NCBI RefSeq assembly: GCF_009914755.1 | Contig: NC_060945.1 | DNA from: the human T2T-CHM13v2.0 reference genome, Homo sapiens | Strand: one strand, 5' to 3' | DNA: 64,000 nucleotides | Shown here: positions 50,161-53,100 of the stretch, piece by piece | Layout of the letters: each line of letters starts with the position of its first letter | How positions within the stretch are numbered: position 1 is the first letter of the stretch | Notes under the pieces: model-generated | The model's input: the letters and a program-made list of their open reading frames with translations, nothing else | What the model was told of the DNA's origin: nothing | Database searches by the model: none | Made by a program: the position numbers and the translations under genes

Positions 50161-53100
50161 CTTTTTTTTTTTTTTTTGAGCCGGAGTCTCACTCTTTCGC
50201 CAGGCTGGAGTGCAGTGGCGCAATCTTGGCTCACTGCAACCTCCGCCTCCTGGGTTCAAGTGATTCTTCTGCCTCAGCCTCCCAAGTAGCTGGGATTATA
50301 GGCGCCTGCCACCATGCGCGGCTAATTTTTGTATTTTTAGTAGAGACTGGGCTTCACCATGTTGGCCAGGCTGGTCTCGAACTCCTGACTTCAGGCGATC
50401 CACCCGCCTTGACTCCCAAAGTGCTGGGATTACAGGTATGAGCCACCGCACCCGGCCTGAGCTGGGCTTTAAAACACTGAGTTGAAGGGTTATTTTGATC
50501 GCAGGCACCTTGTTAAAGGCTTTGCTCTCGTACGTATGTGGGAGGGCCTAGACCTTGGTGGGGGATTTTGTGGGCTTTGGAGTATTCCTCAAGGCTGACC
50601 AGCACCTCTGCAGAAGACTTGGTTTCCAGGCTGCTGTGGGAAGATCTGATGGTCATGTTGTGTATTCAGAGCCTTGGTCCCCTCCTTTATTGATGTTTCC
50701 TGAAATAAAACCCTTTTGCTACATTTCAAGAGCAGTGATGGGCCAGGCACAATGGCTCACGTCTGTAATCACAGCAGTTTAGGAGGCTGAGGCAGTTGGA
50801 TTACTTGAGCCCAGGAGTTTGAAACCAGCCTGTGGGCTACGAAAATTAAAAACAATTCACCGGGCGTGGGGGCACGCACCTGTAGTCTCAGCTACTTTGG
50901 AGGCTGAAGCAGGAGGATTGCTTGAGCCCAGGAAGTCGAGGCTGCAGGGTGAGCTAAGACTGTGCCACTGCACTCCAGCCTGGGCTGTAACAGAGTGAGA
51001 CCCTGTCTCAAAAAAAAAACAAAAATAGCTCACACCTGTAATCCCAGCACTTTGGGAGGCCAAGGCGGGCAGATCACAAGGTCAGGTGATCGAGACCATC
51101 CTGGCTAACACGGTGAAACCCCGTCTCTACTAAAAATCCAAAAAAAAATTAGCTGGGGGTGGTGGCGGACGCCTGTAGTCCCAGCTACTTGGGAGGCTGA
51201 GGCAGGAGAATGATGTGAACCCGGGAGGCGGAGCTTGCAGTGATCCGAGATCGCACCAGTGCACTCCAGCCTGGGAGACAGAGCAAGACTCTGTCTCAAA
51301 AAAAAAAAAGCGGTGATGGTTCATTTGACAGGCACTTCCAAGTTTTTATCATGAAGAAGAATTTCTGGCGAAGTCCCTCTTGCCCTGGGCTGGCGCCTGA
51401 CTGCAGAAGCTGCAGTGCCTGTGACTCAGGAAAGGACACGTGTTGTCGTATCACACACACCTTGTGCTTTCTCTGCCCTCAGTGAGGTCTCTGAGGTTTT
51501 CTCACCTTGAAATAGATGAGTCTGCTCTGTTGAGCATGTGGAGCCACTGGGGCTGGCCTATCTCCCTGCAGGAAGGGGATGCATAGGCCTGGCTGCACGG
51601 TGGATGGGGCATGGGCTAGAGCTGATGAGGCAGTTAGAAATGGTTGTTCTGGCAGATCAATACCTTGTCAGACGTTTAAGAAGTACACGTTCCAAACTAT
51701 AAACGAGGGAATTGCCAGCTTGGATAAGGTGGATACGTTGATTTCCTGATACCAGCATGCCACGGGAGGGCTTCCTCCTTCCTGACTGTGGGGAACAGTT
51801 GTGAGGCTCCAAAGCGTTGGCTTATTGTTTGCTTTCCTTCAGCTCTGTGTAAGAACAGGAGAAAAGTGGAACCTTCTTTAATCGCTGTGAGGGTTTCATG
51901 TTATGTTTCAGGCTGTCTGTTTTGTGTGGTCTGAGCATGTGATCTTGGGGGAATTCCTAGAAAGCAGAATATGTTCAGGCTCCCTCTGCTCTCCTGAGTA
52001 AGGTGCAGTCAGTTGCCTGTCTCAGGCCTCTGTGTCCTGTCCTTGTCTTCACCACATGTCAGGGAGTCCTGGGGATGTGTTTTGTTTGTTTCTTTTTTGT
52101 TTTTTAAAAGACAGGGTCTCCCTGTGTTGCCCAGGCTAGTCTCGAACTCTTGGGCTCAAGAGATCCTCTTGCCTTGGCCTCCCAGGTAGTTGGAATTACA
52201 GGCATGAGCCACTGCTCCCAGCTTGGGAGGTGCCTCTTGAGAGAAGCTGGAGCCATGTTGTCTTTCTGGACAAAATTAGACAGGGGTCTGATGCTGCTGG
52301 GAGCTGCCCTCCAGGCCAGTCCTCAGATGCCAGCTTCAGTTTCCTTTCGTTCCCAGTTTTGATCATAGGCAAACAGATGCTTTGGAGAATAGCACTTGTT
52401 CCCAAGCTGTGGATTTAAAATTAGGTTTTCTTGGTTTGTTTGGTTTAAAGAAAATGAAGTTCGGAAAGAATATTCAGAAAGGAGGAACTTGCATATCACA
52501 CATGAAGTGTGTGTTTCAAACCACGGCCTGATTTAGTCAGAGGAAGCATGTGGAGCGTGTGCACCTTCTGTGCCCTGTGTGGGGATGTGGCACATCTGGA
52601 TGTTTCCTGGACGGAAGGAGCTGGTCGCAGCCCTGTGCAATCAGATATGCCTGCTGGAGGCAGAGAGGACCAAAGCCCTGGACAGGGTGGGTGCCAAGGT
52701 CCTGCTCCTGGAGCATCAGCACCAAGCGGCCCTGCAGGAACTCAGAGATGTACGCTGCCAAGATGCAGGAGCATCAAGCAGGGCAGGCGGAGCTGGAGGA
52801 GCCGGGGGAGCCGGAGGTTCTGGGGGTGCTGGGGGAGCTACAGGTGCTGCGGGAGGGGCTGTGCAGGTGAGCAGCTCCACGTGTGTGGTTCCCACAGGGG
52901 TGCCTCCCCGGCTTCTCTGCCCTGAGTCTTCATCAGAGCGTTCAGGCACTTACGGATACACTTGGAGCCGCTGGATTGTGCGTGCAGTGGGGTCTGTGCT
53001 CAAAGAGTGCAGCTTCGTGGGGGCAGATGTGTCAGTGCACCTGGCCAGCGAGGCAGCTGCAGGGGTGGGCATCCGGGGGGGGGTGTCTTTGGTTGGCCTC

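What the first reader, a model, noticed from the sequence alone, without database searches (positions are those of the whole stretch)
52451..52872. Hidden pericentrin exon in intron 15: frameshifted relic that is still open and in phase
Seen: 52618-52866 lies between an AG and a strong CAG|GTGAGC donor. It is 249 nt, stop-free, and in phase 0 with exon 15. Its first 45 codons are typical pericentrin-like coiled coil (ELVAALCNQICLLEAERTKALDRVGAKVLLLEHQHQAALQELRDV). Near 52750 the helical text continues in another frame (YAAKMQEHQAGQAELEEPGEPEVLGVLGELQ), the signature of a small indel, so the current frame gives a Gly/Ala linker (AGGAGGAGGAGGSGG). Upstream in the same frame are ATGs at 52585 and 52600, a single TAG at 52534, and a second acceptor TTTAAAG|52451. 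From memory (unverified), mouse Pcnt has a similar peptide right after the exon-15 equivalent, and rodents make a short N-truncated muscle/heart isoform. Inference: a dead ancestral exon, a live cassette with a novel flexible hinge, or the first coding exon of a human short PCNT isoform.
Basis: partly seen in the sequence, partly recalled or inferred. Interest (0 to 1): 0.8.

Follow-up and report, generated by a model that had tools for sequence, protein, structure and literature searches.

The report
Decayed ancestral pericentrin exon in human intron
This stretch of human PCNT intron 15 is the decayed remnant of a coding exon that many other mammals still use, an ordinary case of exon loss rather than a hidden working human exon.

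Summary
Window 52618-52866 is 249 nt and stop-free. It has AG before it and CAG|GTGAGC after it, and it is in phase 0 with exon 15.

It is not a chance ORF. Pericentrin proteins of colugos, tree shrew, rodents, rabbit, pika, bats, manatees and a marsupial carry an extra exon, "exon X", directly after their exon-15 equivalent. That exon aligns to window 52612-52764 at 49-67% identity, colinear with exon 15.

The human copy is damaged in three ways:
- Two mammalian read-through ORFs show Q (CAG) immediately before the exon, where human has CGG. The human AG lies one codon further in.
- The ancestral text moves to the +1 frame at about 52741-52756.
- The 3' part is a GC-rich 9/27-nt tandem repeat, which produces the Gly/Ala run.

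RefSeq human mRNAs skip it. So does a 96%-identical primate-like transcript fragment.

In rat, exon X is specific to the long isoform Pcnt B. The first exon of the short isoform Pcnt S lies downstream of it.

Verdict: a pseudoexon, i.e. a lineage-specific exon loss. Residual low-level inclusion in human cannot be excluded, because no RNA data were available.

The parts
49435..49990 (+). PCNT exon 15, which ends in phase 0 (CAC CAG|gtaagg). It is the upstream neighbour of the relic.
   Evidence: Hub annotation. Phase computed. Orthologs align here at 44-95% identity.
52534..52602 (+). Intronic lead-in: in-frame TAG at 52534-52536 and in-frame ATGs at 52585 and 52600. It is homologous to intron sequence in other mammals, in a different frame.
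   Evidence: The read-through ORFs P0042 and P0044 align upstream of the exon only after a 1-nt shift.
52612..52617 (+). Acceptor region, CGG AAG. P0042 and P0044 read ...SWQ|EEL here, i.e. CAG|GAG. In human the ancestral AG position reads GG (52613-52614). The first codon is AAG, which supplies a new AG at 52616-52617, 3 nt further in.
   Evidence: peptide level; the DNA of the other species was not seen, so the exact base changes are inferred. The pyrimidine fraction of the tract is 0.47, the lowest among internal PCNT acceptors in the window, which range from 0.53 to 0.94.
52615..52752 (+). 5' part of the relic exon, still in the ancestral frame: 46 codons, KELVAAL...QELRDV.
   Evidence: tblastn on the 52500-52900 subregion gave 42.5-73% identity to the 13 orthologous exon-X peptides tested. 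For 12 of them E ran from 5.9e-9 to 7e-19. The P0010 hit was weak (E 0.002, starting at 52630). E against the whole window was 1e-7 to 4.5e-11 for most queries.
52741..52756 (+). Frameshift site. The ancestral text D-x-H-x-A-E-M-Q continues in frame +1, as for a 2-nt deletion.
   Evidence: A frameshift-aware alignment places one shift here in 12 of 12 orthologs. In 11 it is of the 2-nt-deletion type; in one (P0024) it is of the 1-nt-insertion type.
52757..52816 (+). Middle part of the relic. It is homologous only in frame +1 (AKMQEHQAGQAELEEPGEPE). Frame 0 here reads non-ancestral Gly/Ala/Ser.
   Evidence: Frame-1 hits at 39-60% identity, E from 4e-4 to 0.02 in a 400-nt search space. One search agrees.
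52789..52855 (+). GC-rich tandem repeat: 9-nt unit x 5.7 copies and 27-nt unit x 2.4 copies. It generates the AGGAGGAGGSGG run in frame 0.
   Evidence: Tandem Repeats Finder.
52864..52872 (+). Donor CAG|GTGAGC. It matches 8 of 9 consensus positions and is in frame 0. A second, weaker CAG|GTGCTG lies 23 nt upstream, in frame +1.
   Evidence: The read-through ORFs P0042 and P0044 also read Q|VS across their donors, as human frame 0 does (Q|VSS). The downstream alignment is weak (E 0.024).

Best explanation
Window 52612-52872 is the human ortholog of a real pericentrin coding exon, called "exon X" here.

Where exon X is used: in marsupial, afrotherian, bat, lagomorph, rodent, tree-shrew and colugo pericentrins it sits between the equivalents of human exons 15 and 16, and it encodes about 59-75 residues of coiled coil.

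What happened in the human lineage: the exon has dropped out of the mRNA and is decaying in the intron.
- The ancestral 3' splice site (CAG|GAG) now reads CGG|AAG.
- A change of the 2-nt-deletion type near 52750 pushes the ancestral text into frame +1.
- A 9/27-nt GC-rich tandem repeat has overgrown the 3' part.

Why it still looks like an exon: it reads as open and in phase because the local sequence is GC- and G-rich, so stop codons are rare, and because the net length change happens to be a multiple of three. Selection need not be involved.

How it works now: it has no coding function. The spliceosome joins exon 15 directly to exon 16.

Shown versus inferred: the homology, colinearity, frame switch, repeat, weak acceptor tract and absence from RefSeq mRNAs are shown. 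The exact base changes at the acceptor, the timing of the loss and the absence of any residual inclusion are inferred.
For: (1) Homology and colinearity.
- Partial or full pericentrins retrieved with exon 15 or with colugo exon X were run by tblastn against the window.
- The exon-X residues follow the exon-15 residues without a gap. Examples are P0004 245-437 then 437-485, P0018 768-960 then 960-1005, and P0019 781-973 then 973-1023.
- They hit 52612-52764 and nowhere else.

(2) Breadth. One search listed the residues after exon 15 for 39 proteins.
- 28 continue with the exon-X peptide. They are Galeopterus, Cynocephalus, Neotoma, Castor, Dipodomys, Oryctolagus, Ochotona, 15 bat proteins, two Trichechus, Petaurus, two rodent-like RNA contigs and Erethizon, whose model changes frame part-way.
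- Tupaia P0006 also carries it, but the script misplaced its exon-15 boundary.

(3) Frame switch. Frame-0 identity over 52615-52752 is 42.5-73%. Homology then continues in frame +1. The frameshift-aware alignment places a single shift at 52741-52756 in 12 of 12 orthologs.

(4) Acceptor. The genomic read-through ORFs P0042 and P0044 read SWQ|EEL where human reads SWTE/EL after a 1-nt shift. The human tract has the lowest pyrimidine content among the window's internal PCNT acceptors.

(5) Repeat. A tandem repeat covers 52789-52855.

(6) Not used in human mRNAs.
- Neither RefSeq PCNT transcript has an exon here (hub annotation).
- P0001, 96% identical to human exon 15, splices HQ|GEFGSEKK, i.e. 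exon 15 directly to exon 16.
- No primate-named protein appeared among the 9 hits or the 22 hits.
- phmmer of the 83-residue human reading against 1.84 billion representatives gave 5 hits at E<=0.001. Four match query residues 1-47 or 1-48 only. The fifth, P0043, is a 28%-identical match to residues 24-59. None covers the Gly/Ala tail.

(7) Openness is not special. At least 15 stop-free stretches of 201 codons or more occur in this window.
Against: - No RNA-seq, long-read, CAGE or proteomic data could be queried, so absence of use in human tissues is inferred from annotation only.
- A usable AG (52616-52617) and a strong donor (8 of 9 consensus positions) remain, and the 249 nt are open and symmetric in phase, so inclusion would not trigger nonsense-mediated decay. 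This is the configuration in which low-level or tissue-specific inclusion can persist.
- The 5' 46 codons are about as similar to colugo (69.6%) as the functional exon 15 is (67.9%). The 5' part therefore shows no excess decay.
- The primate negatives are weak. The searches use a word index, clusters are collapsed at 90% identity, and the libraries appear to hold few or no human-identical sequences.
- The acceptor reconstruction rests on peptides from two unnamed read-through ORFs, not on aligned DNA.
Confidence: 0.8

Rival explanations
1. Live alternative cassette exon. Human cells sometimes splice 52618-52866 between exons 15 and 16. That would insert 83 residues after residue 1055: 45 ancestral coiled-coil residues followed by a new Gly/Ala-rich flexible segment.
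For: The AG at 52616-52617, the donor matching 8 of 9 consensus positions, the 249 nt without a stop, and the symmetric phase 0/0. The repeat units are 9 and 27 nt, so copy-number change would keep the frame.
Against: - It is not in either RefSeq transcript (hub annotation).
- The acceptor has the poorest pyrimidine tract among the window's internal PCNT acceptors, and A at position -3.
- The ancestral acceptor is lost.
- Half of the exon is out of the ancestral frame.
- A primate-like transcript fragment skips it.
- No database protein carries the Gly/Ala tail.
Confidence: 0.1
2. First (coding) exon of a human N-truncated PCNT isoform. Transcription would start near 52.3-52.6 kb and translation at the ATG at 52585 or 52600, analogous to rodent Pcnt S.
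For: - In-frame ATGs at 52585 and 52600 lie after the TAG at 52534.
- Rodents make a short Pcnt S from an intronic first exon in this part of the gene (Fig. S1 legend of bioRxiv 10.1101/2021.04.19.440474, passages seen).
- Western blots show smaller PCNT bands in human cell lines (PMC3460829, part 1 of 2 of the text read).
Against: - In rat this exon belongs to Pcnt B. The Pcnt B-specific forward primer of PMC4541494 encodes MALHNE, which lies inside exon X of P0009 and P0010. The common reverse primer encodes DALRRL further downstream. The Pcnt S first exon is therefore a different piece downstream of exon X.
- That rat exon is described as carrying a stop, with translation starting further downstream, so it is not a coding first exon.
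- There is no CpG island here: CpG observed/expected is 0.28-0.45 over 52400-53400.
- The rat Pcnt S primer has no match in the window with up to 3 mismatches. This is uninformative at rat-human distance.
Confidence: 0.04
3. Chance open reading frame in a GC-rich intron that merely looks like coiled coil.
For: Long stop-free stretches are common in this window: at least 15 of 201 codons or more. The 3' part is a simple GC-rich repeat.
Against: There is specific, colinear homology to an exon at the same gene position in many mammals, with E down to 4.5e-11 against the whole window.
Confidence: 0.01

Closest known systems
Pericentrin exon following the exon-15 equivalent in other mammals. Examples: Cynocephalus volans isoform X2 (P0018, residues about 961-1030), Myotis brandtii (P0019), Oryctolagus cuniculus isoform X4 (P0025), Castor canadensis (P0021), Trichechus manatus (P0040), Petaurus breviceps (P0017).
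   Same: - Same position in the gene, directly after the ...LQGAHQ end of exon 15.
- Same phase (0/0).
- 42.5-73% residue identity over the first 46 codons in the tblastn.
- Same Q|VS read-through at the donor.
   Different: - The human copy has lost the ancestral AG.
- It is shifted to frame +1 from about 52750.
- It carries a 9/27-nt repeat expansion.
- It is absent from RefSeq mRNAs.
Pseudoexons inside functional protein-coding genes, as defined in the GENCODE/PhyloCSF survey (Mudge et al. [quoted passage not shown] That survey reported 32 such genes.
   Same: An ancestral coding exon disabled in the human lineage while the host gene (PCNT) stays functional. It is recognisable by homology to species that keep it.
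   Different: PCNT is not listed as a pseudoexon case in the supplement that could be searched. File 3 has only one PCNT entry, the 68-aa alternative-frame ORF over exon 2. Files 1 and 8 were not searched. Unlike many pseudoexons, this relic has no stop codon in the exon-15 frame.
Rodent Pcnt S alternative first exon (Miyoshi et al. 2006 as cited; Steinfeldt et al., bioRxiv 10.1101/2021.04.19.440474, Fig. S1 legend).
   Same: An intronic sequence in the same part of the pericentrin gene that can become an exon. It contains an in-frame stop upstream.
   Different: The rat Pcnt S exon lies downstream of exon X. Exon X itself is Pcnt B-specific in rat. No sequence match was found.

Membership tests
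Orthologous pericentrin coding exon (exon X) | Sequence homology to the exon of other species | tested here: met
   In the tblastn on the 52500-52900 subregion, identity over 52615-52752 was 42.5-73%. E ran from 5.9e-9 to 7e-19 for 12 of 13 peptides; the P0010 hit was weak (E 0.002). Against the whole window, E was 1e-7 to 4.5e-11 for most queries and 2.7e-5 for Dipodomys.
Orthologous pericentrin coding exon (exon X) | Same order and orientation in the gene, directly after the exon-15 equivalent | tested here: met
   Query and window coordinates are colinear in every ortholog that carries the exon.
Functional (live) coding exon | Ancestral 3' splice site retained | tested here: not met
   P0042 and P0044 read SWQ|EEL. 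Human has CGG at the position of that CAG. A substitute AG lies 3 nt further in, with a weak pyrimidine tract. This is a peptide-level inference.
Functional (live) coding exon | Ancestral reading frame intact over the whole exon | tested here: not met
   The frame switches at 52741-52756 in 12 of 12 frameshift-aware alignments. Homology continues in frame +1.
Functional (live) coding exon | Included in mature human mRNA | not testable with these tools
   It is absent from both RefSeq transcripts (hub annotation) and from the primate-like contig P0001. No RNA-seq or long-read resource was available.
Pseudoexon within a functional gene (sensu Mudge et al. 2019) | Ancestral CDS segment with frame-disrupting change in human, host gene still coding | tested here: met
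   for the disruption. PCNT is an annotated functional gene (hub annotation).
Rodent Pcnt S-type alternative first exon | Homologous to the exon that starts Pcnt S in rodents | tested here: not met
   The rat Pcnt B-specific primer encodes MALHNE inside exon X. The Pcnt S exon lies between it and the DALRRL exon. The Pcnt S primer was not found in the window (a weak test).

The most novel reading that the evidence does not exclude
The relic is not fully dead. Using the replacement AG at 52616-52617 and the strong donor at 52866, some human tissues would include it. Heart, skeletal muscle and testis are the obvious candidates, because pericentrin isoforms differ there in rodents. The result would be a pericentrin with 45 ancestral coiled-coil residues plus a human- or primate-specific Gly/Ala flexible hinge, created by a frameshift and a repeat expansion, inserted after residue 1055. 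This would be exon 'resurrection' with new sequence.
Probability: 0.08. Interest if true: 0.55.

Novelty: new member of a known kind. Interest (0 to 1): 0.3.

Why it matters
- Human-rodent differences. It explains a local difference between human and rodent pericentrin. Rodents carry exon X, and the retrieved rodent proteins lack the human exon-16 segment, whereas human has the reverse. This bears on primer, antibody and siRNA design, and on mapping MOPD II variants and Pcnt B/S isoform boundaries between species.
- Clinical genetics. The site is a ready-made pseudoexon with a strong donor and a nearby AG inside a disease gene. Deep-intronic variants that strengthen the acceptor tract could activate an in-frame 83-residue insertion. 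That would escape nonsense-mediated decay and be easy to miss.
- Overall. Apart from these points it is an ordinary example of lineage-specific exon loss.

Tried and rejected
- Chance ORF: rejected by the homology.
- Search for the rat Pcnt S-specific primer in the window with up to 3 mismatches: 0 matches. This is uninformative at that evolutionary distance.
- Alignment of the intron read-through tails of P0042 and P0044 to the human sequence after 52866: only a weak frame-0 match (E 0.024). The orthology of the 52866 donor is therefore suggestive, not shown.
- Pfam scan of colugo pericentrin P0018: only the C-terminal PACT domain (3011-3089) was found. Exon X belongs to no Pfam family.
- Literature. 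'PCNT' + 'intron 15' gave 4 papers, none on this by title or abstract. 'PCNT' + 'pseudoexon' gave 4 papers, 3 listed. 'pericentrin' + 'exon loss' gave 3 papers. None describes this relic, judging from the listings and the passages read.
- PMC3198765 held none of the terms 'exon', 'Pcnt S lacks' or 'N-terminal' in its main text.
- A comparison of exon X with the exon-16 peptide, meant to test for an old tandem exon duplication, was not carried out. That question stays open.
- Dating the loss within primates was not possible, because no primate or other mammalian genomic DNA is reachable with these tools.
- P0041 is a 52-residue unnamed representative, 74% identical to the human relic. It shares several human-type residues, and its last residues (AEAEGRA) resemble the out-of-frame human reading (AGASSRA). 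This hints at a frameshifted copy in a related species, but the hint cannot be checked without DNA.
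Full report
**1. The observation**

The sequence is as described.
- Window 52618-52866 is 249 nt. AG lies at 52616-52617 and CAG|GTGAGC at 52864-52872.
- In the frame that begins after the TAG at 52534 there is no stop for 281 codons, 52537-53382.
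- Concatenating the annotated PCNT coding parts shows that exon 15 (49435-49990) ends in phase 0. An 83-codon insert would therefore keep the frame.
They are the coiled-coil text in frame 0, its continuation in frame +1, and the Gly/Ala run in frame 0.
- The Gly/Ala run coincides with a GC-rich tandem repeat at 52789-52855, with a 9-nt unit x 5.7 copies and a 27-nt unit x 2.4 copies.

Openness alone means little here. The window holds at least 15 stop-free stretches of 201 codons or more over its six frames, and this one is the third longest.

**2. What it is**

*Retrieving orthologs.* I used the translation of exon 15 to retrieve pericentrin fragments from a 5.8-billion-protein library (17 hits). 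I then aligned them back to the whole window with tblastn. In three of them the residues immediately after the exon-15 equivalent hit 52612-52758 at 55-65% identity:
- Galeopterus P0004
- Trichechus P0012
- the marsupial Petaurus P0017

*Widening the set.* Two further searches seeded with the colugo exon gave 9 hits and 22 hits. They added Cynocephalus, Castor, Dipodomys, Oryctolagus, Ochotona, many bats and Trichechus manatus. All 7 new proteins tested hit 52612-52764, directly after their exon-15 match. E was 2.7e-5 for Dipodomys and 9e-10 to 4.5e-11 for the other six.

*What follows exon 15.* One search listed the residues after exon 15 for 39 proteins.
- 28 continue with the exon-X peptide (EELAAAL...LLLE.QHQAALQELGD.H.AEMQ...).
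- Tupaia P0006 also has it, though the script misplaced its boundary.
- Three skip it. These are P0001 (96% identical to human exon 15, unnamed source), the seal Leptonychotes P0011 and the rhinoceros Diceros P0005. P0001 and P0011 go straight to GEF.SEKK, the start of human exon 16. The rhinoceros model has another 51-residue insertion before GEFESEKK.
- The remaining seven models or contigs read into the intron.

P0009 and P0010 are spliced contigs, so exon X is present in real transcripts of a rodent-like species. Their ends translate to what I recall is an Illumina adapter.

The human stretch is therefore the ortholog of a therian-age pericentrin exon, which I call exon X.

**3. How the human copy is damaged**

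(a) *Frame.* tblastn of 13 exon-X peptides against 52500-52900 gave frame-0 matches over 52615-52752 and frame-+1 matches beyond that. An example of the latter is DMHAAEMQRQRAEQQALQE against EMYAAKMQEHQAGQAELEE, 47% identical. A frameshift-aware dynamic-programming alignment placed one shift at 52741-52756 in 12 of 12 orthologs. Eleven were of the 2-nt-deletion type and one (Dipodomys) of the 1-nt-insertion type.

(b) *Acceptor.* phmmer of the 83-residue human reading against 1.84 billion cluster representatives gave 5 hits at E<=0.001. Two of them, P0042 and P0044, are ORFs read through from genomic DNA of other mammals.
- They read ...SWQ|EEL... at the 5' boundary.
- Human reads ...SWTE and then, after a 1-nt shift, EL....
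- Where those species have Q (which must be CAG to supply the AG), human has CGG (52612-52614).
- The first exon codon is AAG instead of GAG.
- This is inferred from peptides. I could not see the DNA of the other species.
- The human tract has a pyrimidine fraction of 0.47 over positions -20 to -4. That is below all 14 internal PCNT acceptors in the window (0.53-0.94).

(c) *3' part.* The 3' third is overgrown by the tandem repeat. The donor CAG|GTGAGC (8 of 9 consensus positions) lies in frame 0. P0042 and P0044 read Q|VS across their donors just as human frame 0 reads Q|VSS. The net length change between the frameshift and the donor is therefore a multiple of three. A second CAGGTG lies 23 nt upstream in frame +1, which suggests that repeat slippage restored the phase. 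This is my inference, and the chance of such a restoration is about 1 in 3 anyway.

**4. Is it used in human?**

- Neither RefSeq transcript has an exon here (hub annotation).
- The primate-like contig P0001 skips it.
- No primate-named protein appeared among the exon-X hits.
- Of the 5 hits, four match only query residues 1-47 or 1-48. The fifth, P0043, is a 28%-identical match to residues 24-59. None carries the Gly/Ala tail.

These negatives are weak. The first two searches use a word index, clusters are collapsed, and the libraries seem to hold few or no human-identical sequences. I had no access to RNA-seq, CAGE or proteomics. I therefore rate the "dead exon" reading at about 0.8 and residual inclusion at about 0.1.

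**5. The short-isoform idea**

- Rodents do make Pcnt S. This rests on PMC3460829 (part 1 of 2 of the text read) and on passages of bioRxiv 10.1101/2021.04.19.440474.
- The Fig. S1 legend of the preprint says that in rat an intronic region between exons 13 and 14 becomes the first exon of Pcnt S. It also says that this exon contains a stop, with translation starting downstream.
- The three-primer RT-PCR of PMC4541494 can be read against my proteins. The Pcnt B-specific forward primer encodes MALHNE, found only in exon X of P0009 and P0010. The common reverse primer encodes DALRRL, found downstream in 14 pericentrins.
- In rat, therefore, exon X is Pcnt B-specific and the Pcnt S exon lies downstream of it. 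The human relic is not the counterpart of the Pcnt S first exon.
- The relic has no CpG island: CpG observed/expected is 0.28-0.45.

**6. Comparison with what is known**

The closest known things are two.
- The annotated exon in other mammals, of which this is the disabled ortholog.
- The class of "pseudoexons" within functional genes. The GENCODE/PhyloCSF survey reported 32 such genes (PMC6886504, passages).

In the searchable part of that paper's supplements, PCNT appears in only one entry, a 68-residue alternative-frame ORF over exon 2 (files 1 and 8 not searched). Searches for 'PCNT' + 'intron 15', 'PCNT' + 'pseudoexon' and 'pericentrin' + 'exon loss' found no description of this relic. 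I therefore file it as a new member of a known kind.

**7. Verdict**

Interest is modest at 0.3. The practical value lies in two things: cross-species mapping of pericentrin isoforms, and flagging an in-frame, activatable pseudoexon in a disease gene.

Noticed in passing
proteins P0004, P0018, P0006, P0021, P0024, P0010 versus P0019-P0040 (no window coordinates; human exon 16 lies beyond 64000): Exon X and the exon-16 segment (GEF.SEKK...QLQEK..Q) show a complementary pattern in the retrieved proteins. Bats, rabbit, pika and manatees have both. Colugos, tree shrew, beaver, kangaroo rat and the rodent-like contig have exon X only. Human, the primate-like P0001, seal and rhinoceros have exon 16 only. 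These are mostly predicted models, so isoform choice could contribute to the pattern.
   Followed up: partly
window 9641-9844: LOC128092249 is a 204-nt single-exon CDS that overlaps PCNT exon 2 (9730-9942) in another frame. It matches the 68-residue conserved alternative-frame ORF listed as 'under investigation' in the supplement of Mudge et al. 2019.
   Followed up: partly
window 17808-18159: PCNT exon 3 holds a 39-nt (13-residue, [13 protein letters not shown]) tandem repeat of 9.0 copies at 92% match. The annotation splits the exon at 17840/17880, leaving a 39-nt gap without GT-AG ends. This most likely means that this assembly has one more repeat unit than the reference mRNA, i.e. a coding VNTR.
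   Followed up: partly
window 54488-55375: Long stop-free stretches on both strands (210 and 277 codons) lie in a segment with strongly negative GC skew and positive AT skew. It is probably a repeat or transposon remnant. It was not examined.
   Followed up: no
protein P0005 (Diceros bicornis minor), residues after 887: The rhinoceros model has a different 51-residue insertion (SALLPAELEAQ...KTAQLK) between the exon-15 equivalent and GEFESEKK. No match to it was found in the window at E<=1e-3.
   Followed up: no
protein P0003 (Erethizon dorsatum): The porcupine model starts exon X normally (EELAMALYGQRHLLEEESIVA) and then reads WTGWVLRSW..., which resembles the human +1 frame reading PWTGWVPRSCSW. 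This points to a frameshift or assembly error in that species' exon X at a different place from the human one.
   Followed up: no
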